64,000 nucleotides of DNA from a virus. Taxonomy: Duplodnaviria > Heunggongvirae > Uroviricota > Caudoviricetes. Position 1 is the stretch's first letter; each line of letters starts with the position of its first letter. The stretch spans positions 71,343 through 135,342 of IMG/VR virus record IMGVR_UViG_3300045450_000050, one strand, 5' to 3'. Shown here in pieces: positions 4,493 through 49,494 of the stretch. Under the pieces are notes generated by a model. That model did no database searches. It was not told the DNA's origin and saw nothing but the letters and a program-made list of their open reading frames with translations. A program made the translations under genes and the position numbers.

Positions 4493-4812
4493 CGTTCCTT
4501 CACCACCGTCATGTCCCATCCCTGGTTGACGGCGTCCTGCTCGTGGTCCCTGATCCAATTCAGGCCCTCGGTCTTGGTGTCGAAGCGATAGGGCAGGCGG
4601 TTGTGGACGGTGCTGCCCACCTCGTTCTGCCGCTCCATGTCGATGCGCCACTTCAGGTCGATGATGCGCACGCCCTCGGCGTAGAGAGTCGCGGCGACCT
4701 CTCGGTGGTAGCTGAGGTAGTGGCTGAATGTGGTGTGCTTCGCCTCTGCCTGATGCAGCGCGAGGGCCAGCTTCTCGATGGCCTTGGCCTCGATATCGTC
4801 CAGATGTGTCAT
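4489..4812 (-). CDS. hypothetical protein (107 aa)
   Basis: Trimmed to MTHLDDIEAKAIEK...; ATGA overlap. Confidence 0.65.
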   Translation of the reverse strand: MTHLDDIEAKAIEKLALALHQAEAKHTTFSHYLSYHREVAATLYAEGVRIIDLKWRIDMERQNEVGSTVHNRLPYRFDTKTEGLNWIRDHEQDAVNQGWDMTVVKER

Positions 4813-41781: not shown

Positions 41782-43422
41782 TCACATCTTGGCGAACGCC
41801 GAGATGACCTGGGGAACGGACGAGTCGAAGCCGACCACGTCCAGGGTGCGGGGGTCCTTGGGGTCCGCGACCGAGGACCGCGAGGCGTTGGTCGCCACGA
41901 CGACGAGCTTGGCGTCGATACCCGTTTCCTTGCGGTACTTCGCCAGCTCCTCGTGCGTGTGCGCCGGGCCTGCGTAGGTCTCGTTGTCCGTCATGAGCAC
42001 GAACACGTCGACCTGGATCTTCTGCTCGCGTGCGTAGCGGATCACGCACGACACGTCGGTCATGCGGCCCGTGTGTGCCCGTGCCTCCCACGTTGCCTCC
42101 TGGAGGGTCATGCCCTTTCGGATGCTCAGCGGGTAGGTGTACGCGTCGAAGCCGATGGTGTGGACCTCGGGCTCGATGTTCGCGATAACGCAGGCCATGG
42201 CCGCGCCACCCTCGGACGCCGTCATGTTGGGCACGTCAGCGATGCGAGCACCCATCGATCCGGAGGTGTCCACGCCCACGAGGTAGCGCAGACCCGTGGG
42301 CTCTGCGAACTTGAACGCGAGATGGAACGCCTCGTCGAGCGCGGCGATGATGCGCTGGTTGGGCACCCAAGTGGCCGTCGAGCGGGCCTGGGTGGAGTGA
42401 CCGAGCGCGTACGCCTTCTGGGCGAGCAGGATCGTCATCGGGTGCAGGCGCGCCTTGGCCAGCGCGTCACGATCCGTCAGACGGTCCACCACGAGCTGCG
42501 TCTTGCCTCCGAGGGGAACGATGACACCGATGCGCGTCAGACGCGAGAGCTGGCGGAGCAGCGCGCCCAGGGGCACGTTGTTGTTCTCCAGCAGGGCCGT
42601 CCAGACCGCCTCGTTGTTCAGCGCCGACGAGGGCAGCATCTCCCACGACAGGCCGTACGTCTTGATGATCGAGATCAGCTCGGACACCTTGGCGCTGGGC
42701 GTGTTCTCCCACTCCAGGGCCTTCAGGTTGCCGGTGACAGCCTTGGGCAGCAGCACGCGCGAGGGGTCTTCGACGCGGCCGAGCGTGTAGTCCATGAGGT
42801 GGCGGAACAGCTCGTCCTCGCTCGACTTGGTGGGCCGAGCGAGCTTGATCAGGTCGGCGTGCGACCATCCCTCGCGGTTCTTGTACTTCGTGAGCTGGTA
42901 GCCGAGGCGCTCGATGTCCTTGCCCTCGTACCAGCGCTTGAACGCCTTGCGGGCACCCATACCGAAGCCCTTGCCTCCGCGAAGGTTCTTCAGGAACTCG
43001 GCGAACATGAACAGCGTCGTGCCCGTACGGCAGACCTTGTCGACCTGCTGGTACGCGTAGCTGCGCGCGGCGTCGTCCTCGGTGGTCGCGATGACCAGAG
43101 CGAGCGCGAAGATGGCGGGGTCCTGCTTGGGAGCGCGGCCCTCGACCGAGACCGAGACGATGAGATCGATCAGTTCGAACACCTTGTCGGTGCGAGCCAC
43201 GTCCTCGATGTCGCTGACGCGCTTCAGCGTCAGCTTCTGGCCGGTCTGGTAGAAGCCGCTCTCGGCACCGAGGATGAGGAAGCGCTTGATGGCTTCCATC
43301 TTGCCGACCTTGAAGACGTAGCCGCCCGCGGCGTTCTTCTTCTGCTCGGGTGCGGCCTTCTTCGTGCCGGGCGTGGTCTTCTGAACGGGTGCTCCGACCG
43401 TGCGGAGAGTGCTGTTACCCAT
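41782..43422 (-). CDS. rsr: Ro60-like TROVE-domain protein with C-terminal vWA/MIDAS domain
   Basis: 546 aa after trimming the track ORF to ATG 43422 (AAAGGA RBS); N-terminal GGYVFKVGKMEAIKRFLILGAESGFYQ, C-terminal MIDAS VGVDTSGSMG; adjacent Y-RNA-like array. Confidence 0.8.
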   Translation of the reverse strand: MGNSTLRTVGAPVQKTTPGTKKAAPEQKKNAAGGYVFKVGKMEAIKRFLILGAESGFYQTGQKLTLKRVSDIEDVARTDKVFELIDLIVSVSVEGRAPKQDPAIFALALVIATTEDDAARSYAYQQVDKVCRTGTTLFMFAEFLKNLRGGKGFGMGARKAFKRWYEGKDIERLGYQLTKYKNREGWSHADLIKLARPTKSSEDELFRHLMDYTLGRVEDPSRVLLPKAVTGNLKALEWENTPSAKVSELISIIKTYGLSWEMLPSSALNNEAVWTALLENNNVPLGALLRQLSRLTRIGVIVPLGGKTQLVVDRLTDRDALAKARLHPMTILLAQKAYALGHSTQARSTATWVPNQRIIAALDEAFHLAFKFAEPTGLRYLVGVDTSGSMGARIADVPNMTASEGGAAMACVIANIEPEVHTIGFDAYTYPLSIRKGMTLQEATWEARAHTGRMTDVSCVIRYAREQKIQVDVFVLMTDNETYAGPAHTHEELAKYRKETGIDAKLVVVATNASRSSVADPKDPRTLDVVGFDSSVPQVISAFAKM

Positions 43423-43445
43423 GGATGTCGTCCTTTCGATCAGGG

Positions 43446-43502
43446 CATAGAAAAATCCCGGGGGTGGACTGGCTGTTGGCCAGTATGGGACCCACCCCCG
43501 GG
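43446..43502 (-). terminator. intrinsic terminator between the Y-RNA-like array and rsr
   Basis: Minus-strand hairpin CCCGGGGGUGG...CCACCCCCGGG followed by AUUUUUCU. Confidence 0.6.
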
Positions 43503-43504
43503 AC

Positions 43505-43737
43505 GGGGAATCCAGACAGGAGATCGCTGCGCGAGGATCTAGGCAGTGATAACGCGGAGCTAACAGCCTGGAAAGTTTAGTGGGCAGACAGGAAACGCAA
43601 TCGGGAATGGTTGTTTGAGTTTGAGTCAAATTGATAACCCGGAAGCAGCAGCCTGCTCATGTGAAGTTGTAAGGCCCGACAGGAAACGACCCGGGAGAGT
43701 ATCACCACAAGATAACCCGGACCAGACAGCCTGGCCT
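43505..43737 (-). ncRNA. three tandem short Y-RNA-like stem modules (no tRNA-like domain)
   Basis: Each starts CAGGCUG-N-(C/G)GGUUAUC and ends CCUGUCUG, with complementary 5' and 3' arms. Confidence 0.4.
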
Positions 43738-43774
43738 TTGTGAATGAGAGAGCTTTGACCCTCTCTCACCCGAG

Positions 43775-43918
43775 AAAAATAATGTCAGACAGGAAGGCGA
43801 ACCTCGCGTTTAGGCGCTCTGCCGATTGAGCTATACCGGATTGCTCCGGCACTGGGACTCGAACCCAGAACATCCCGCTTAGAAGGCGATAACGAGATTC
43901 AGGCAGCCTGACATCTTC
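43775..43918 (-). ncRNA. Y-RNA-like ncRNA with circularly permuted tRNA-like domain (module 2)
   Basis: Minus strand: T-arm CUGGG-UUCGAGU-CCCAG, 7-bp acceptor-like stem UGCCGGA/UCCGGUA closed by GCAA loop, D-arm GCUC-AAUCGGCA-GAGC; 5' and 3' ends pair in a long imperfect stem. Confidence 0.6.
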
Positions 43919-43930
43919 TTCTGTTGTGTT

Positions 43931-43964
43931 CTGATTATTGCACGACTCGCGCTAACGAGTCAAG
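43931..43964 (-). promoter_or_regulatory. promoter-like motif copy inside the Y-RNA locus
   Basis: CTGATTATTGCACGACTCGCGCTAACGAGTCAAG. Confidence 0.5.
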
Positions 43965-44110
43965 TAGTACCGCAGACAGGGGGCGAGTTCGGAGATTTTA
44001 CGCTGCTCTACCAACTGAGCTACCCCCCGATGTGGTCGGGGGACCTGGACTCGAACCAGGGACCAACGGCTCCGGATGCGATAACCGAGTCTCTTCAGCC
44101 TGCGGAAGTC
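43945..44110 (-). ncRNA. Y-RNA-like ncRNA with circularly permuted tRNA-like domain (module 1)
   Basis: T-arm CCUGG-UUCGAGU-CCAGG, acceptor-like stem UCCCCCG/CGGGGGG closed by 7-nt loop, D-arm GCUC-AGUUGGUA-GAGC, flanking complementary arms. Confidence 0.55.
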
Positions 44111-44167
44111 TGTTGTGTTGTTGTGCCCGTTATACGCCTGAGCCCCGGGCACAATCCACACTAGCGG

Positions 44168-45739
44168 TCAGAAAATCCAGGATTTCTGCAACTCGTCCTG
44201 GGTGGGCTCCGGGTGCTTGCTGTCCAGCCATGCGTGTGCCTCGTCCACGGACGAGAACGTCTTGCGCGTGCCCGGTCCCGTGAACTCCCAGCCGGTCGAC
44301 ACAGTGCCCAGGAAGACGTTCTCGCCCTCCAGGTAGGCCTGTGCTGCTCCGGCGAGCACACGAGGCTCGTACTGCTTGGGAGCAGTGGTGCTGGGGCGCG
44401 GGTAGCGGCGCTCGAAATACGGCCCTCCGAGGAGAACGGCGTCCTTCAGTCGCACACCGGGGATGCCTGCGAACATGAGGGTCTGCGAGTGTGCACCGTA
44501 CATGACGTGCTTCTCGATGCTGATGCCCGAGATCTCGCCGCCGCCCTCCTGACGCTCCACCTGGAGGTGGTCGCAGTGGGCTCCCGAGCCGACCGGCTTC
44601 AGGATGGGTGCGCCGTAGCCGCCGTAGATGCCGATGCGGCTCAGGGTAGTTCCGGGCTTGGCCGTGACGAAGCGGTGACGGTCATCGCTGGCGATGAGCA
44701 GACCACGAGACACGGGCTCGATCCACTCGATGTCCGACGCCGACTTGCTGTCGTTCGCCGTGACGCGACACATGTTGATCTCACTCCACGCCCACGCGCT
44801 CTTGTGCGAGTTGCGGAACAGCACGGCCTGGCCGATGGCCTCGAAGCCGACGAACGAGATGCCCTGGATCTCCACGAACGAGATGCCCGAATCCAGCTTG
44901 ACGCGACCGTAGCCGTTCAGCGGAGTGATGAGCACGTTCTGCCCGGCGCTGTTCACGCCGTTGAGACCTGCCAGCTCACCCGCACGCGACGAACCTGCAC
45001 CGGCACCGTTGAGCGCGCCGTCTCGAACCTTCAGGTGACGAGCACCCGCGAGGATGGCCTGTCGGATGGCGCTCCACGAGCAGTCCACGATCACCGAGGG
45101 AACCTGTCCCGGACGCGGGGTGTTGGATGGCCAGAAGACGCCGAAACGTCCTCCTGCCGGAACGGGAAGCGTCACGACGGGCGGAGGAGTCGGCGTGGGC
45201 TCAGGAGTCGGTGTGGGAGTCGGTGTGGGCGTCGGTGTGGGCTCGGGAGCCGCACCCTTGGTCACCGCGCTGGATGCCGTGACCGAAGCTGCTCCTGAGG
45301 TTGCGCGCACCGAGAAGGTGACCGCACCGGCAGGAACACCCGCCGTCTTGATGGTGGCCTCGTAGAGAGATCCGGCCTTGGTCAGGGTGGCGACGACCGC
45401 GTCCTGGTACAGCAGGACAACGGTGGGTGCATCCAGGCCCGCCACCGCAGCCGAGACATAGACCGTGTCGGCATCGAACGTAGTTCCCGGCGCAGGCGTC
45501 AGGATCGTCACGCTCGGAGGAGCGGGCTGCGGGTCGGGCACGGGCTCCAGAGTCGGAACCGGCTCAGGGCCCGGCACAGGAGCCTCCAGCTCCGCGATAC
45601 GAGCGCGCAGCTCAGCGATGACGCCCTGATCGGCCGTCACCTTGCTCTGCTCCGCCACCAGTGCGCTCTCCAGTTCCGAGAACTGCTCGTCGTAGTAGTT
45701 CTCGGCACGCTTGCGCGCTTCTGTGTGGTCCAGGGTCAT
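44168..45739 (-). CDS. structural/cell-wall-binding protein with N-terminal coiled coil, Pro/Thr linker and C-terminal beta-helix (pectate-lyase-like) region; possible tailspike/depolymerase
   Basis: 523 aa; TPTPTPTPTPEPTPTPP linker; beta-rich C-terminus; located next to the lysin. Confidence 0.65.
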   Translation of the reverse strand: MTLDHTEARKRAENYYDEQFSELESALVAEQSKVTADQGVIAELRARIAELEAPVPGPEPVPTLEPVPDPQPAPPSVTILTPAPGTTFDADTVYVSAAVAGLDAPTVVLLYQDAVVATLTKAGSLYEATIKTAGVPAGAVTFSVRATSGAASVTASSAVTKGAAPEPTPTPTPTPTPTPEPTPTPPPVVTLPVPAGGRFGVFWPSNTPRPGQVPSVIVDCSWSAIRQAILAGARHLKVRDGALNGAGAGSSRAGELAGLNGVNSAGQNVLITPLNGYGRVKLDSGISFVEIQGISFVGFEAIGQAVLFRNSHKSAWAWSEINMCRVTANDSKSASDIEWIEPVSRGLLIASDDRHRFVTAKPGTTLSRIGIYGGYGAPILKPVGSGAHCDHLQVERQEGGGEISGISIEKHVMYGAHSQTLMFAGIPGVRLKDAVLLGGPYFERRYPRPSTTAPKQYEPRVLAGAAQAYLEGENVFLGTVSTGWEFTGPGTRKTFSSVDEAHAWLDSKHPEPTQDELQKSWIF

Positions 45740-45765: not shown

Positions 45766-47862
45766 TCAGGGCAGGTACTTGGAGATCTCTTCGGCGTCCG
45801 AGAGCTGGTTGGCTCGCAGGTTCTTCAGGAACTCTACGGACACGGAGACCGTGTCTGCGGGGACCTCGGGCTCGGGCGTCGTGGTGTCGACGTACTTGGT
45901 CTGGTAGATCACCTTGGCGCGCAGCAGGATCTTGTCCAGATCCATCGATGGCCCGGGGCAGACCGTGCTCGTGGACTTGCCCGCAGGGGTGTCACGGTGA
46001 GGGATCAGTCCCGGCACAGTGATGACGTTCTCGCCGTTGCGCAGCTCGGCCGCGCCCCGCTGAATCGGGAACTGGTAGCGGTGAGCCGCCCAGGCCAGGA
46101 TGTCGGCGATGCGCTCGTGCGAGGCACCGCTGATGCCCCAGTTGGGCTCCGCCGAAGTGTTGCCCGTCTCGATGGTGACGGCCTGGTGATCGATCTGACC
46201 CGTCGTCCACGCGCGGTAGTCGTCGGGGGGAACGATCTCGTCCGCCGAGCCATCCTGGTTGACGTTCCAGTTCGGCGAGACGTTGCGGTCGTTCGCAGCC
46301 ATGAAGCGCTTGCGGGCGCTCTCGGCGCTGCCCGTGTCTGCACGGTGGTGAAGGATCAGGGCCTGGACCTTGCCTGTACGCACCGACTTGTTCGGCGAGA
46401 TGTCGGCCCATGCAGCACCGGGGTACTGAGGGGTCTTCTTGCCGTACGTGGGGTCGGCTGCGGGGTCCTTGGGAGCGTCGGGCAGAGCCACGCCGGGGAA
46501 GCCCTTGGCGTCGGAGGCGGGGCCCCAGACACCGTCAGCGTCGAGGCCGTTCTTCTCCTGCCACTGCGCCACCTTCACCGAGGTGTTGGGGCCGTAGCTG
46601 CCGTCGATCTCCGCGCCGACGAGCTTCTGGATGTCCTCCGTCTTGCGCGTGGTCGCGTTGCGGCCCGTGGTCGGGTAGCTCGACGCGGGGTTGGTGACCG
46701 GGAAGCCCTCGGCGTCGGAGGACTCGCCCCAGATGCCGTCTGCTTCGAGACCGTTCGCTGCCTGCCAGACCTTCACCTTGTCGGTGGTCTCCTGGCCCCA
46801 GATGCCGTCTGCGGTGGCACCCACCAGGCGCTGGATGTCCCAGGTGGAGCGTGTCGTACGGTTGCCACCGACCGAGGCGGGCGGGAACGCCTTGGCGTCC
46901 GCGAGCGGGCCCCAGACACCGTCAGGCTCCAGGCCGTTGTCCTTCTGGAACGCGATGACTGCCGAAGTGGTGGCCTGACCGTAGTCGCCGTCCGCTCCGT
47001 ACTGGCCGAGGTCGTAGCCCTTCGACTTCAGATAGTTCTGGATCTCGGTCGTCGAGCGCGAAGTCGCGTTGCGGCCCACGGGGGCCGCGGTGAGCTTCTG
47101 GTCCATGACGTTGTTCGTCGCGGGACCGGCGATGCCATCTGCGGCAAGACCGTTGGCCGACTGGAAGCGCTTGACTGCCTCCCGAGTGCCACCACCGTCG
47201 AGACCGTCGACTGTGACAGGACCCAGGCCAAGACGGTTGAGCTTGTCCTGGATCGCACGGACCCATGCGCCGCCGTACATGCTGTTCGCAGGGTGCTGCT
47301 CGCGGTGAGCTGCCTCGGTGCCTGCGCCCCACGCGCCGTCCTGCGCCACGCCCAGGATGCCCTGGTAGCGCTTGACCGCTGCCTGAGTGGCAGGGCCGTC
47401 GATGCCGTCTACGGTCAGGCCCGCGCCGAGGTTGTCGTTCAGCCAGTTCTGGGCATCACGAATCGACGGTCCTCCGGAGGCTCCACCGGCAGGCGCACCC
47501 TGGCCACGGAAGTTGTCTTCGGACTCCAGGTACTCGGTGTGCCAGACCTCGGACGCGACCGTGCGACGGTGGCCGTTGCGATTGATCGTGAGCCCACGCC
47601 AACCGGTGCCGTCATACAGACCCAGCAGGCCGTAGACAGCGTAGCCCCAGTCGATGGCGTTGCCGCGCTCGTGGATGGACTGACCGGGCGGAAGCGCGAG
47701 TGGTCCGCCGTTCTTGTACTTGCGGTAGGCCTCAGCCTGCTCGGCGTATGTACGCCCCGCGGAAGCGATGGGGAGGATGCGCCCGAAGGCACTGTCCATC
47801 CGGTGGACAGACGCAGCACAGGCGTCAGATGCCCAGCCACGACCGTGGGAGAGAGTTGCCAT
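45766..47862 (-). CDS. multidomain endolysin: M15 zinc peptidase + 5x PG_binding_1 repeats + N-acetylmuramoyl-L-alanine amidase (Amidase_2)
   Basis: SIHERGNAIDW (M15), five DGxxGxxT..Q..NGLxxDG repeats, C-terminal ILHHRADTGSAE...IETGN; track ORF trimmed at ATG 47862 because its 5' extension overlaps tRNA-Ala. Confidence 0.85.
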   Translation of the reverse strand: MATLSHGRGWASDACAASVHRMDSAFGRILPIASAGRTYAEQAEAYRKYKNGGPLALPPGQSIHERGNAIDWGYAVYGLLGLYDGTGWRGLTINRNGHRRTVASEVWHTEYLESEDNFRGQGAPAGGASGGPSIRDAQNWLNDNLGAGLTVDGIDGPATQAAVKRYQGILGVAQDGAWGAGTEAAHREQHPANSMYGGAWVRAIQDKLNRLGLGPVTVDGLDGGGTREAVKRFQSANGLAADGIAGPATNNVMDQKLTAAPVGRNATSRSTTEIQNYLKSKGYDLGQYGADGDYGQATTSAVIAFQKDNGLEPDGVWGPLADAKAFPPASVGGNRTTRSTWDIQRLVGATADGIWGQETTDKVKVWQAANGLEADGIWGESSDAEGFPVTNPASSYPTTGRNATTRKTEDIQKLVGAEIDGSYGPNTSVKVAQWQEKNGLDADGVWGPASDAKGFPGVALPDAPKDPAADPTYGKKTPQYPGAAWADISPNKSVRTGKVQALILHHRADTGSAESARKRFMAANDRNVSPNWNVNQDGSADEIVPPDDYRAWTTGQIDHQAVTIETGNTSAEPNWGISGASHERIADILAWAAHRYQFPIQRGAAELRNGENVITVPGLIPHRDTPAGKSTSTVCPGPSMDLDKILLRAKVIYQTKYVDTTTPEPEVPADTVSVSVEFLKNLRANQLSDAEEISKYLP
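46300..47300 (-). repeat. five coding repeats of a PG_binding_1 module within the lysin gene
   Basis: ~150-nt periodic repeats visible in both DNA and protein. Confidence 0.7.
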
Positions 47863-47963
47863 GGGTCGGTCCTCCAGGGGACATGCCGAACAAGGGAGTA
47901 TCGGCACAGGGAGTATCGGCCTGGCATGTGAACGTGCGGGTGCTCGATATACGAGACTTGCTG

Positions 47964-48198: not shown

Positions 48199-48278
48199 TG
48201 GAGAGGCAGGCGGGAATCGAACCCGCGTTCTCATCCGCTACAGGTGTCCGGGTTAGAACTCCGGCCTGATACTGCCCC
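48199..48278 (-). tRNA. atypical tRNA-like gene with encoded CCA (possible Arg(UCU)); aberrant D-arm region
   Basis: Canonical T-arm GCGGG-UUCGAUU-CCCGC, 7-bp acceptor stem and CCA; anticodon-like loop GUUCUAA; no standard D-arm. Confidence 0.35.
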
Positions 48279-48293
48279 GTGATTCTGAAATTG

Positions 48294-49379: not shown

Positions 49380-49494
49380 TGTGCGTGACAGACGGGGAGC
49401 GAGTCCTGGGGTGCCCACCAATCGGGCGTATGACCTAGCGGCCACAGGTGGAGTCGAACCATCGATAACCAGAAGCTCTTCAGCCTGTCGTGCG
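49380..49494 (-). ncRNA. Y-RNA-like ncRNA with permuted tRNA-like domain (module 6) inside the tRNA cluster
   Basis: 5' GACAGGCUGAAGAGCUUCUGGUUAUCG matches the rsr-proximal modules; T-arm GAUGG-UUCGACU-CCACC, acceptor-like UGUGGCC/GGUCAUA closed by GCUA, D-arm GCCC-GAUUGGU-GGGC. Confidence 0.5.

What the first reader, a model, noticed from the sequence alone, without database searches (positions are those of the whole stretch)
43423..44167. Ro60 (rsr) preceded by a tandem array of Y-RNA-like modules, two with circularly permuted tRNA-like domains
Upstream of the TROVE/vWA Ro60 homolog lie five co-oriented modules. Each begins CAGGCUG...(C/G)GGUUAUC and ends CCUGUCUG, with complementary 5' and 3' arms. 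Modules 1 and 2 (43945-44110, 43775-43918) each contain a canonical T-arm (GG-UUCGAGU-CC), a 7-bp acceptor-like stem closed by a small loop, and a D-arm (GCUC-AxUxGGxA-GAGC). The order is T-arm, acceptor 3' strand, loop, acceptor 5' strand, D-arm. That is a tRNA opened at the anticodon and closed at the acceptor end, which is how bacterial Y RNAs (YrlA-type) are described. A promoter-like motif (43931-43964) and an intrinsic terminator (43446-43502) bracket the array, so rsr expression may depend on read-through. Ro60 with Y RNAs has been reported in some phages. A five-module array containing two tRNA-like Y RNAs would be unusual.
Basis: partly seen in the sequence, partly recalled or inferred. 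Interest (0 to 1): 0.8.

Follow-up and report, generated by a model that had tools for sequence, protein, structure and literature searches.

The report
Phage Ro60 gene with Y-RNA array
An actinobacterial-type phage carries, just upstream of its Ro60 RNA-binding protein gene, five small structured RNA genes (two of them tRNA mimics), which is a well-supported but expected example of the known Ro60/Y-RNA partnership, and related phages have the same kind of array.

Summary
Window 41782-43422(-) encodes a full-length Ro60/Rsr (TROVE + Ro60-vWA; E 4e-90 to D. radiodurans Rsr). The 745-nt spacer upstream holds five co-oriented modules. Each has a covarying terminal stem (N4-AGGC/GUCU-N4, with an invariant G·U), an internal loop, a second covarying stem and then UUAUC. 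Modules 1 and 2 contain a T arm, a closed 7-bp acceptor stem and a D arm. They give sub-threshold Rfam YrlA hits (43 and 32 bits), as other actinophage YrlA candidates do (28-47 bits). Three points need correcting.

- The promoter lies between modules 1 and 2, so it does not bracket the array.
- The tRNA-like domains also keep an anticodon-arm-like hairpin, so the break sits at the D/anticodon junction.
- The array is not unusual. Magritte has six modules, a related MAG contig five, and Zooman, Cece and prophiGD43A-5 five or six.

A sixth module lies in the tRNA cluster (49387-49489). The best explanation is a polycistronic set of YrlA- and YrlB-type Y RNAs that bind phage Ro60 and give it several effector-recruiting RNPs. 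This is a new member of a known kind. Expression and Ro60 binding are inferred, not shown.

The parts
41782..43422 (-). Ro60/Rsr gene (546 aa; ATG at 43422-43420)
   Evidence: Pfam TROVE 3.2e-42 and vWA_Ro60 5e-47. PHROG 850 RNA-binding protein 1.6e-61. Full-length matches to D. radiodurans Rsr 2nvo (4.3e-90) and Xenopus Ro60 1yvp (1.5e-86). 62% identical to the Magritte Ro-like protein.
43431..43437 (-). Shine-Dalgarno-like GAAAGGA, 8 nt upstream of the Ro60 ATG
   Evidence: Read directly from the sequence. GAAAGGA is conserved in Magritte.
43449..43502 (-). Intrinsic-terminator-like hairpin (stem 43457-43502) followed by AUUUUUCU, lying between the array and the Ro60 ribosome-binding site
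   Evidence: RNAfold gives -34.2 kcal/mol, z = -4.90, with 0 of 200 shuffles folding as well. It is absent from Magritte at the same place. The simple terminator scan did not call it because of its branched stem.
43511..43572 (-). Module W5: short (YrlB-like) Y RNA candidate with a 19-nt distal loop
   Evidence: Model R1 scores 48.6 bits, E 1e-8. The terminal stem UCCAGGC/GUCUGGA and a second stem are present. It aligns with Magritte M6.
43582..43658 (-). Module W4: short Y RNA candidate with an A/C-rich distal loop
   Evidence: R1 scores 47.4 bits. The fold has z = -2.0 and closes the terminal stem. It aligns with Magritte M5, whose loop is also A/C-rich.
43672..43737 (-). Module W3: short Y RNA candidate with a small distal hairpin UUAUC-UUGUG-GUGAU
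   Evidence: R1 scores 47.1 bits. The MFE structure shows both stems. It is orthologous to Magritte M4, with compensatory changes in the second stem.
43743..43770 (-). Conserved hairpin GUGAGAGAG-GGUCAAAG-CUCUCUCAU; role unknown (possibly a processing or stabilising element)
   Evidence: Fold energy -14.1 kcal/mol, z = -3.3. Magritte has the same loop with two compensatory stem changes (UCGGAGAG/CUCUCCGA). It was found in no other locus fetched.
43781..43915 (-). Module W2: YrlA-type tRNA-like Y RNA of the tetraloop class. Sub-features: anticodon-arm-like hairpin 43875-43889 (loop CUUCUAA), T arm 43852-43868, acceptor hairpin 43834-43851 (GCAA loop), D arm 43816-43831.
   Evidence: Rfam YrlA 32.4 bits, E 5.9e-5. 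R1 47.6 bits. The fold has z = -2.9. ARAGORN reads a cloverleaf after permutation. Helices covary across 16 modules. It is orthologous to Magritte M3, which GenBank annotates as tRNA-Arg(tct).
43934..43963 (-). Internal sigma-70-type promoter-like site TTGACT-N18-(TG)cAATAAT, between W1 and W2
   Evidence: 10 of 12 positions match, with TG upstream. The region has 2 sites against 0.2 expected. The 30-nt pattern is unique in the window. Nearly the same sequence occurs in the Magritte array, but there it lies after M3.
43970..44105 (-). Module W1: YrlA-type tRNA-like Y RNA of the CCA-loop class. Sub-features: anticodon-arm-like hairpin 44066-44082, T arm 44044-44060, acceptor hairpin 44023-44043 (3' strand followed by ACCA), D arm 44005-44020.
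   Evidence: Rfam YrlA 43.3 bits, E 4.2e-8. The MFE structure shows the terminal stem, T arm, acceptor and D arm. ARAGORN reads a cloverleaf with an ACCA end after permutation. It is orthologous to Magritte M1.
44129..44134 (-). Weak candidate -10 element (TATAAC) followed by the conserved leader ACAACACAACAGA upstream of W1; speculative
   Evidence: CGTAT and the leader are conserved in Magritte upstream of M1. A similar leader follows the internal promoter. The promoter scan did not call this site.
49387..49489 (-). Module W6: a sixth Y-RNA-like module outside the finding, inside the tRNA cluster. It has the same termini (GACAGGCUGAAG...CCCCGUCUGUC), a T-loop-like GGUUCGACUCC (49450-49460), a 5-bp hairpin (49431-49444) and a D-arm-like GCCC-GAUUGGU-GGGC (49413-49427).
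   Evidence: Regex hit. The only hit to CAGGCTG-N11-GTTATC. The MFE structure closes the terminal and second stems. The same T-loop-only type lies next to Ro60 in A3Wally, Zooman and L036.

Best explanation
The spacer upstream of the phage Ro60 gene is a cluster of five Y RNA genes, and a sixth copy lies among the phage tRNA genes. Each RNA closes its 5' and 3' ends into a conserved bulged helix (5'-N4-AGGC-UG... / ...CCUGUCU-N4-3'). This corresponds to the Ro60-binding stem of bacterial YrlA/YrlB and animal Y RNAs.

A second helix then leads to a variable distal domain.

- In W1 and W2 this domain is a YrlA-type tRNA mimic: an anticodon-arm-like hairpin, a variable loop, a T arm, a closed 7-bp acceptor stem and a D arm.
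- In W3-W5 it is a short loop or hairpin of the YrlB type.

Inferred mechanism (no step below was shown here):

1. The modules are transcribed as one or two polycistronic precursors. One starts upstream of W1. The other starts at the internal promoter before W2.
2. The precursors are cut and trimmed back to the terminal stems, and the products are stabilised by binding phage Ro60.
3. W1 has a 7-bp acceptor stem and an encoded ACCA. It is predicted to be cleaved by RNase P into a two-piece RNA with a CCA end, as shown for M. smegmatis YrlA.
4. The different distal domains let one Ro60 ring assemble several RNPs that tether or gate host effectors such as PNPase or tRNA-binding enzymes during infection.
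5. The strong hairpin and U-tract before the Ro60 ribosome-binding site make Ro60 mRNA depend on read-through. Y RNAs would then be made in excess over Ro60.
For: - **Protein partner.** The ORF is a full-length Ro60.
- **Module repeat.** CAGGCTG-N10-GTTATC occurs 5 times on one strand against 0.00 expected.
- **RNA structure.** Both helices covary: 89.8% of cells are paired against 43% or less when slid, and 12 of 19 pairs show double changes. An invariant G·U pair makes the pairing specific to the minus strand, and so to RNA.
- **Model hits.** Model R1 scores 46-53 bits on W2-W5 and on Magritte M3-M6 (24 bits on M2). These sequences trained the model, so the scores only show that the whole modules fit it. 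Nothing else in the window scores comparably.
- **YrlA similarity.** Rfam YrlA hits fall on W1 (43.3 bits, E 4e-8) and W2 (32.4 bits, E 6e-5).
- **tRNA-like helices.** Across 16 actinophage modules the T arm, the 7-bp acceptor stem and the D arm are 98.8-100% paired, and all 7 acceptor pairs covary.
- **Cloverleaf test.** ARAGORN reads cloverleaves only after the Ro-stem arms are removed and the RNA is permuted.
- **tRNA similarity.** The permuted domains are as similar to the phage's own tRNAs as those tRNAs are to one another.
- **Conservation.** The modules are orthologous one-to-one with Magritte, although genome-wide DNA similarity is patchy. A 52%-identical Ro60 locus (L036) has five modules with AGGCCGAAG...CCCGUCU termini. 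These bridge to the published GNCGAAN0-1G motif.
- **Composition.** GC falls to 0.50-0.58 in the spacer, against 0.64-0.69 in the flanking genes. The overlapping ORFs have no significant family match; the best is E 0.0098 to a PHROG of unknown function.
- **Literature.** YrlA lies within 4 kb of Ro60 on the same strand in 254 bacteria and 22 phages. [quoted passage not shown] D. radiodurans Yrn1 and Yrn2 are co-transcribed with a tRNA (PMC4201824). Thermus phage Ro60 binds two upstream Y-like RNAs and host PNPase (PMC12135203).
Against: - There are no expression, processing or binding data for this phage.
- W1 and W2 score below the Rfam YrlA gathering threshold of 69 bits. All actinophage candidates tested also fall below it, including one in the Bixzunavirus phage Essence (28-47 bits). 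By my recollection the published example ET08 belongs to the same cluster.
- The published 5' motif GNCGAAN0-1G is not met literally. W1 and W6 have GCUGAAG, and W2-W5 have GCUG followed by other bases.
- RNAfold z-scores for single modules are modest (-0.2 to -2.9).
- The internal promoter cannot account for W1. The candidate promoter upstream of W1 is weak.
- The terminator is not conserved in Magritte, so the read-through idea applies to this phage only.
Confidence: 0.82

Rival explanations
1. The modules are cis-acting elements of the Ro60 mRNA leader rather than independent stable small RNAs. Examples would be Ro60 autoregulatory binding sites or transcript stabilisers.
For: All five modules are co-oriented with Ro60 and lie directly upstream. 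No promoter fits between the terminator and the Ro60 ribosome-binding site, so Ro60 mRNA must start within or upstream of the array.
Against: - A strong terminator-like hairpin separates the array from Ro60.
- A sixth module sits 5.9 kb upstream among the tRNAs.
- In Zooman five modules are separated from Ro60 by the endolysin gene, and in Sixama they lie downstream of Ro60 among tRNAs.
- In M. smegmatis the equivalent upstream RNAs are processed and bound by Rsr (PMC4201824).
- This reading is not exclusive of the main explanation.
Confidence: 0.1
2. W1 and W2 are decayed or rearranged tRNA genes (tRNA pseudogenes or dimer remnants), and the short modules are unrelated repeats. None would have a Ro60-linked function.
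For: The phage has 24 tRNA genes nearby. The tRNA-like parts are within the similarity range of real tRNAs. Annotators called the Magritte orthologue a tRNA.
Against: - ARAGORN finds no tRNA in the native sequences.
- The permuted order with a closed acceptor stem is conserved with compensatory changes across 16 modules from several phage groups.
- All modules share the same covarying terminal helix.
- They co-occur with Ro60 genes.
Confidence: 0.04
3. The repeats act at the DNA level, as binding sites for a regulator, recombination sites or a miniature mobile element.
For: Five copies of conserved end motifs lie in a short spacer. The 5' flank and terminal strand of W4 are identical over 24 nt to those of Magritte M6, which suggests exchange between modules.
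Against: - Pairing is kept through G·U pairs. These include one that is invariant in all 12 modules and would be an A·C mismatch on the other strand.
- All copies are on one strand.
- Stem sequences differ between copies through compensatory changes rather than being copies of one element.
Confidence: 0.02

Closest known systems
YrlA (Rfam RF02553), the tRNA-like bacterial and phage Y RNA of Chen et al. 2014 (PMC4201824); structure in Wang et al. 2018 (bioRxiv 10.1101/312249)
   Same: - It lies on the same strand as Ro60 and within 1 kb of it.
- The terminal stem is followed by YUAY (here UUAUC).
- The order is T arm, closed acceptor stem, D arm, and the tRNA elbow nucleotides are conserved.
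- The 7-bp acceptor stem resembles that of M. smegmatis YrlA, which is cut by RNase P and receives CCA.
   Different: - Scores are 43 and 32 bits, below the 69-bit gathering threshold.
- The 5' motif is GCUG(AAG) rather than GNCGAA.
- W1 encodes a complete ACCA after the acceptor 3' strand.
- Both modules carry a hairpin with a 7-nt loop that resembles an anticodon arm. S. Typhimurium YrlA 'lacks the anticodon loop', and Chen et al. call the equivalent less-conserved stem-loop 'V'.
- There are two such RNAs per locus.
YrlB (S. Typhimurium, M. smegmatis) and D. radiodurans Yrn2: short Y RNAs without a tRNA domain
   Same: W3-W5 are short hairpin-type RNAs with the same Ro-stem as the neighbouring YrlA-type RNAs. 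They lie between YrlA and Ro60, as M. smegmatis YrlB does, and are probably processed from a shared precursor.
   Different: There are three distinct short RNAs rather than one. They have no detectable sequence similarity to the described YrlBs, and no Rfam family covers them.
Thermus phage phiLo Ro60 with Yrl1 and Yrl2 (PMC12135203)
   Same: A phage-encoded Ro60 has Y-like RNAs directly upstream. Those RNAs were shown to bind the phage Ro60 and host PNPase.
   Different: That phage has two RNAs, which were found through a CGAA motif. No tRNA-like domain was reported for them. Here there are five plus one RNAs, the CGAA motif is replaced, and two of the RNAs are tRNA mimics.
Microbacterium phage Magritte (OR553905), intergenic region 75.7-76.5 kb upstream of gene 118
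   Same: The array is orthologous: W1~M1, W2~M3, W3~M4, W4~M5, W5~M6. It has the same AGGCUG/CCUGUC termini, the same internal promoter sequence and the same GGUCAAAG hairpin.
   Different: - Magritte has a sixth module (M2).
- Its promoter lies after M3 rather than before the W2 orthologue.
- It has no terminator before Ro60.
- The region is not annotated as Y RNA, and M3 is annotated as tRNA-Arg(tct).

Membership tests
Ro60/Rsr protein family | TROVE (HEAT-repeat ring) domain followed by a vWA domain, full length of about 530 aa | tested here: met
   Pfam TROVE 3.2e-42 and vWA_Ro60 5e-47. Alignment over residues 17-545 to Rsr 2nvo and 20-543 to Xenopus Ro60.
YrlA (RF02553) | Score at or above the Rfam gathering threshold (69 bits) | tested here: not met
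   W1 scores 43.3 bits and W2 32.4 bits. All actinophage YrlA candidates also fail, including one in the Bixzunavirus phage Essence (28-47 bits). The threshold therefore does not discriminate within this clade.
YrlA (RF02553) | Encoded within 4 kb of Ro60 on the same strand (criterion of Chen et al. 2014) | tested here: met
   W1 and W2 lie 360-680 nt upstream of the Ro60 ATG on the minus strand.
YrlA (RF02553) | tRNA-like domain in the order T arm, closed acceptor-like stem, D arm, with conserved elbow nucleotides | tested here: met
   The features were read directly. RNAalifold and pair counts on 16 modules give T arm 98.8%, acceptor 99.1% and D arm 100% paired, with covariation. ARAGORN reads a cloverleaf after permutation.
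YrlA (RF02553) | 5' GNCGAAN0-1G motif, the presumed Ro60 contact | tested here: not met
   W1 and W6 have GCUGAAG (U in place of C). W2-W5 have GCUGCCUG, GCUGUCUG, GCUGCUG and GCUGUUAG. The related locus L036 has the canonical GCCGAAG in the same position. The window form is therefore a derived variant.
Y RNA (general definition) | 5' and 3' ends pair into a long stem that carries the Ro60 site, with a variable internal loop or distal domain; length about 60-150 nt | tested here: met
   The terminal and second stems covary. MFE folds close the ends in all six modules. Lengths are 62-136 nt.
Y RNA (general definition) | Bound and stabilised by Ro60 in vivo | not testable with these tools
   This needs immunoprecipitation or EMSA. 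Only genomic linkage is available.
Y RNA (general definition) | Expressed as a discrete small RNA | not testable with these tools
   No transcriptome data are available for this phage. The promoter and terminator are consensus matches only.
tRNA (RF00005) | Canonical cloverleaf in the normal order, detected by tRNA finders | tested here: not met
   ARAGORN makes no call at 43423-44167. Rfam tRNA scores 14.7 bits, E 8. The native modules give no ARAGORN call.

The most novel reading that the evidence does not exclude
The tRNA-like Y RNAs may be working tRNA decoys or substrates rather than mere scaffolds. The evidence is suggestive only.

- W1-type RNAs (W1, Magritte M1 and M3, Zooman 3, Cece 3, Sixama 1) encode N-CCA directly after a 7-bp acceptor 3' strand.
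- All 16 tRNA-like modules examined except Magritte M2 (Cece 3 ambiguous) keep a 7-nt anticodon-loop-like hairpin with a U33-like U and a closing A. In one class the loop reads CU-NNU-AA.

After RNase P cleavage these RNAs could present a near-complete tRNA on a Ro60 handle. They might be charged, or they might soak up or report host tRNA-targeting defence nucleases. Ro60 with PNPase would then clear or repair the damaged tRNAs beside the phage's own 24-tRNA set. In this reading the multi-module array is an anti-defence toolkit.
Probability: 0.1. Interest if true: 0.75.

Novelty: new member of a known kind. Interest (0 to 1): 0.38.

Why it matters
This is a clean, comparatively supported case of a phage Ro60 gene with a whole set of Y RNAs: two tRNA mimics, three short RNAs and one more among the tRNAs.

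- **Several partner RNAs.** Actinophage Ro60 genes come with 2-6 partner RNAs of recurring structural classes. This argues that one Ro60 ring is meant to form several different RNPs.
- **Annotation.** GenBank records do not annotate these RNAs, and some call them tRNAs (Magritte gene 117, SM23 tRNA-Asn, prophiGD43A-5 tRNA-Thr). Rfam's YrlA threshold misses the whole clade.
- **Ro60 contact.** The variant Ro-stem motif (GGCUG instead of GCCGAA) gives natural sequence variation for mapping what Ro60 actually reads.

The finding does not change the picture set out in 2014. It extends it.

Tried and rejected
- **Rfam at gathering thresholds** over the whole window gave only tRNAs. The YrlA hits appear only in E-value mode.
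- **Megablast of the region against phage records** gave no match. Only sensitive blastn and protein search led to Magritte.
- **Ro60 relatives in IMG/VR:** three distant loci, of which only L003 was informative.
- **IMG/VR scan for CAGGCTGAAG-N5-9-GGTTATC:** 18 single hits, none with a matching 3' arm, so they are chance matches.
- **Model R1 with filters off:** the long tRNA-like modules were lost because of the hit-length limit. This could not serve as a census tool.
- **RNAduplex-based scan:** too noisy to use. It was replaced by a helix-rule scan with an opposite-strand control, which gave 63 versus 12 hits.
- **Search for a parent tRNA of W1 and W2 among the window's 24 tRNAs:** no specific parent.
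- **RNA-repair or PNPase genes near the locus:** none found. The neighbours are an endolysin, an Ig-domain protein, a methyltransferase, a Band-7 protein and RecA.
- **The 2019 and 2020 Ro60/Y RNA reviews** were not held in the library, and the supplementary tables of Chen 2014 were not available. I therefore cannot say how many YrlA copies per phage were already listed there.
- **The plus-strand promoter-like match at 43755-43783** was dismissed as the reverse complement of the conserved hairpin region.
Full report
**What is there**

On the minus strand, the ORF at 41782-43422 is a full-length Ro60/Rsr. It matches Pfam TROVE (3.2e-42) and the Ro60 vWA domain (5e-47) and PHROG 850 'RNA-binding protein'. 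It aligns end to end with D. radiodurans Rsr (2nvo, 4.3e-90) and Xenopus Ro60 (1yvp, 1.5e-86). The window is an actinophage-type genome. It has 24 tRNA genes at 47.9-55.4 kb and an endolysin at 45766-47931. Its nearest relative is Microbacterium phage Magritte, with 62% Ro60 identity and only patchy ~78% DNA identity.

**The observation**

The 745-nt spacer from 43423 to 44167 has a lower GC content (0.50-0.58) than the flanking genes (0.64-0.69). Its overlapping ORFs have no significant family match; the best is E 0.0098 to a PHROG of unknown function. CAGGCTG-N10-GTTATC occurs five times, all on the minus strand in this spacer, against 0.00 expected by chance. The modules are:

| Module | Coordinates (minus strand) |
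|---|---|
| W1 | 43970-44105 |
| W2 | 43781-43915 |
| W3 | 43672-43737 |
| W4 | 43582-43658 |
| W5 | 43511-43572 |

W2 and W5 have CGUUAUC, and W3 ends CCUGUCGG.

**Is it RNA structure?**

I aligned the 5' and 3' arms of the six window modules and the six Magritte modules (A1). Two helices are supported: a terminal stem N4-AGGC/GUCU-N4 plus a G-C pair beyond a U·U mismatch, and a second stem that ends immediately before UUAUC.

- 89.8% of cells pair, against 28-43% when the 3' partners are slid.
- 12 of 19 pairs carry changes on both sides.
- No shuffle reaches the observed covariation score.
- One pair is an invariant G·U. This fixes the pairing to the minus-strand transcript and argues against a DNA-level repeat.

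A covariance model built from these arms (R1) scores 46-53 bits on W2-W5 and on Magritte M3-M6, and 24 bits on M2. These are training sequences, so the scores only show that the whole modules fit the model. The informative result is that nothing else in the window scores comparably. Thermodynamic folds close the ends of every module, though z-scores are modest.

**The tRNA-like domains**

Rfam in E-value mode places YrlA (RF02553) on W1 (43.3 bits, E 4e-8) and W2 (32.4 bits, E 6e-5). Both are below the 69-bit gathering score. That failure is general for this clade. Every actinophage YrlA candidate I tested scores 28-47 bits, including one in Essence (36 bits), a Bixzunavirus like the published example ET08 by my recollection.

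I then aligned 16 tRNA-like modules from the window, Magritte, Zooman, Cece, FuzzBuster, SM23, BearBQ, prophiGD43A-5, Sixama, Essence, Farewell and an IMG/VR contig.

- RNAalifold recovers the T arm, a 7-bp acceptor stem and the D arm.
- These are 98.8%, 99.1% and 100% paired.
- All seven acceptor pairs covary.

ARAGORN finds no tRNA in the native modules. Once the Ro-stem arms are removed and the sequence is permuted at the acceptor loop, it reads full cloverleaves for W1, W2, M1 and M3. The reason is a short hairpin with a 7-nt loop that sits between UUAUC and the variable loop. The loop is AUCCGGA in W1 and CUUCUAA in W2. It recurs in 14 of the 16 modules examined; Magritte M2 lacks it and Cece 3 is ambiguous. 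The loop has the form (A/C)-U-NNN-N-A, and one stem pair covaries.

The permutation break is therefore at the D/anticodon-stem junction, not in the anticodon. Chen et al. 2014 call the equivalent element the 'V' stem-loop, and S. Typhimurium YrlA lacks an anticodon loop (bioRxiv 10.1101/312249). The layout fits the dimeric-tRNA origin model cited in that preprint.

The permuted domains share 52-56 identical positions with the window's own tRNAs. tRNA-to-tRNA comparisons give a median of 45 and a maximum of 59. The domains have no specific parent tRNA.

**Two acceptor-loop classes**

- In W1, M1, M3, Zooman 3, Cece 3 and Sixama 1 the acceptor 3' strand is followed directly by N-CCA. W1 reads UCCCCCG-ACCA-CAU-CGGGGGG.
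- In W2, M2, FuzzBuster 1 and Farewell 1 the stem is closed by a GCAA or UUCG tetraloop.

M. smegmatis YrlA, which also has a 7-bp stem, is cut by RNase P and gains CCA in vivo (PMC4201824). I therefore predict that W1 is processed into a two-piece, CCA-ended RNA and that W2 is not. This is inference only.

**Transcription signals**

The promoter-like site TTGACT-N18-(TG)cAATAAT at 43963-43934 is a 10-of-12 match and is unique in the window. Almost the same sequence lies inside the Magritte array, but after M3. In the window it lies between W1 and W2, so it cannot serve W1. A weak TATAAC with the conserved leader ACAACACAACAGA lies upstream of W1 and M1.

The hairpin at 43457-43502 (-34.2 kcal/mol, z = -4.9) with AUUUUUCU ends 11 nt before the Ro60 Shine-Dalgarno sequence. 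There is no room for a promoter after it. Magritte lacks this hairpin.

A separate small hairpin (43743-43770, loop GGUCAAAG) is conserved with two compensatory changes in Magritte and was found nowhere else. Its role is unknown.

**How unusual is it?**

It is not unusual.

- Magritte has six modules in the same place.
- A MAG contig whose Ro60 is 52% identical (L036) has five. Their termini, AGGCCGAAG...CCCGUCU, link the window's AGGCUG form to the published GNCGAAN0-1G motif.
- Zooman has six, five of them upstream of its endolysin.
- Cece has five and prophiGD43A-5 five or six.
- An IMG/VR contig has four or five. FuzzBuster, SM23, Essence and Sixama each have three. BearBQ, Myrna and Farewell each have two.
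- A helix-rule scan finds 63 modules on the Ro60 strand against 12 on the opposite strand across 18 loci.

The window also has a sixth module, W6 (49387-49489), between tRNA-Gly and tRNA-Thr. Sixama likewise places modules among its tRNAs. The exact AGGCUGAAG variant appears confined to the window and Magritte lineage. An IMG/VR scan gave only chance hits.

**What is known already**

- Chen et al. 2014 (PMC4201824) reported YrlA within 4 kb of Ro60 in 254 bacteria and 22 phages, with several copies in some loci.
- The same paper reported a second, short Y RNA (YrlB) processed from the same precursor in M. smegmatis.
- It also reported Y RNAs co-transcribed with a tRNA in D. radiodurans, which has five small RNAs upstream of rsr.
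- A 2025 study showed that a Thermus phage Ro60 binds two upstream Y-like RNAs and host PNPase (PMC12135203).

I found no paper that describes multi-module arrays in actinophages.

**Verdict**

The finding is real and correctly identified. It is a new member of a known kind. The extensions beyond the published picture are:

- the number of modules (five plus one);
- the three short YrlB-like RNAs;
- the derived Ro-stem motif;
- the two acceptor-loop classes;
- the retained anticodon-like hairpin.

Expression, processing and Ro60 binding are inferred from homology and covariation and were not shown here.

Noticed in passing
window 49387-49489 (-): A sixth Y-RNA-like module (W6) has the same AGGCUGAAG...CCCCGUCUGUC termini. 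It sits between tRNA-Gly(gcc) and tRNA-Thr(tgt), 5.9 kb upstream of Ro60. Its distal domain has a T-loop-like GGUUCGACUCC, a 5-bp hairpin and a D-arm-like hairpin. A3Wally, Zooman and L036 carry this 'T-loop' type right next to Ro60.
   Followed up: partly
window 43743-43770 (-); L001 2662-2690: A small hairpin with the loop GGUCAAAG is conserved between the window and Magritte, with two compensatory stem changes. In the window it follows W2 and a U-run. In Magritte it follows the internal promoter directly, which suggests a 5' stabiliser or processing signal. It was found in no other locus.
   Followed up: partly
L001 2476-2552 (Magritte gene 117); L010 2168-2234 (SM23); L011 1741-1819 (prophiGD43A-5 gene 51): Features annotated in GenBank as tRNA-Arg(tct), tRNA-Asn and tRNA-Thr(tgt) overlap the 5' parts of YrlA-type modules. 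These are probably mis-calls. The tRNA finder pairs the Ro-stem 5' strand with the acceptor 3' strand and reads the anticodon-like hairpin as the anticodon arm.
   Followed up: partly
A2 alignment; window 43875-43889 and 44066-44082: The anticodon-arm-like hairpins fall into two recurrent loop types across phage groups. One is AU-NNN-RA (W1, M1, Zooman 3, Sixama 2, Essence 2, Farewell 1, L036-1). The other is CU-NNU-AA (W2 UCU, M3 UCU, Zooman 5 UGU, FuzzBuster and SM23 GUU, BearBQ GCU). In the second type every 'anticodon' ends in U followed by AA. From memory, this is the context of tRNAs that read ANN codons; I did not test it.
   Followed up: no
L003 2616-2769 (IMGVR_UViG_3300017650_000001): One module has the usual Y-type terminal stem and UUAUC, but its core is in the normal tRNA order (D arm, anticodon arm, T arm). 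Rfam tRNA scores 41 bits over model positions 6-65. Here the Y stem replaces the acceptor stem rather than entering at the anticodon side.
   Followed up: no
window 43659-43674 with 43651-43658; L001 2853-2876: The 24 nt ACAACUUCACAUGAGCAGGCUG (spacer plus terminal 5' strand) before W4 are identical to those before Magritte M6. The rest of W4 aligns better with M5. This suggests mosaic exchange between modules.
   Followed up: no
L036 (CAZIWB010000017.1, labelled uncultured Cellvibrionaceae MAG): This 126-kb contig has the same tRNA order as the window (Val, Asn, Arg, Arg, Gln, Gln, Lys, Cys ... Ile, Ala), a 52%-identical Ro60 and a five-module Y array. It looks like a phage genome of this lineage that was binned into a bacterial MAG.
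   Followed up: partly
window 48202-48279 (-): A weak tRNA-Sec/tRNA-like Rfam hit (25 bits, E 0.14) falls in the gap between tRNA-Ile and tRNA-Cys. ARAGORN does not call it. It may be a degenerate tRNA or another structured RNA.
   Followed up: no
L016 4961-5017 (Gordonia phage GMA2): A Pistol ribozyme hit above the gathering score (56.8 bits against 34.5) lies in the tRNA/tmRNA cluster downstream of the GMA2 Ro60 gene. A sub-threshold YrlA hit (43 bits) lies nearby at 4676-4785.
   Followed up: no
window 44168-45739 (-): A 523-aa ORF with a bacterial Ig-like (Big_7) domain lies between the endolysin and the Y-RNA array. Magritte has no gene at this position; there the endolysin is followed directly by the array.
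   Followed up: no
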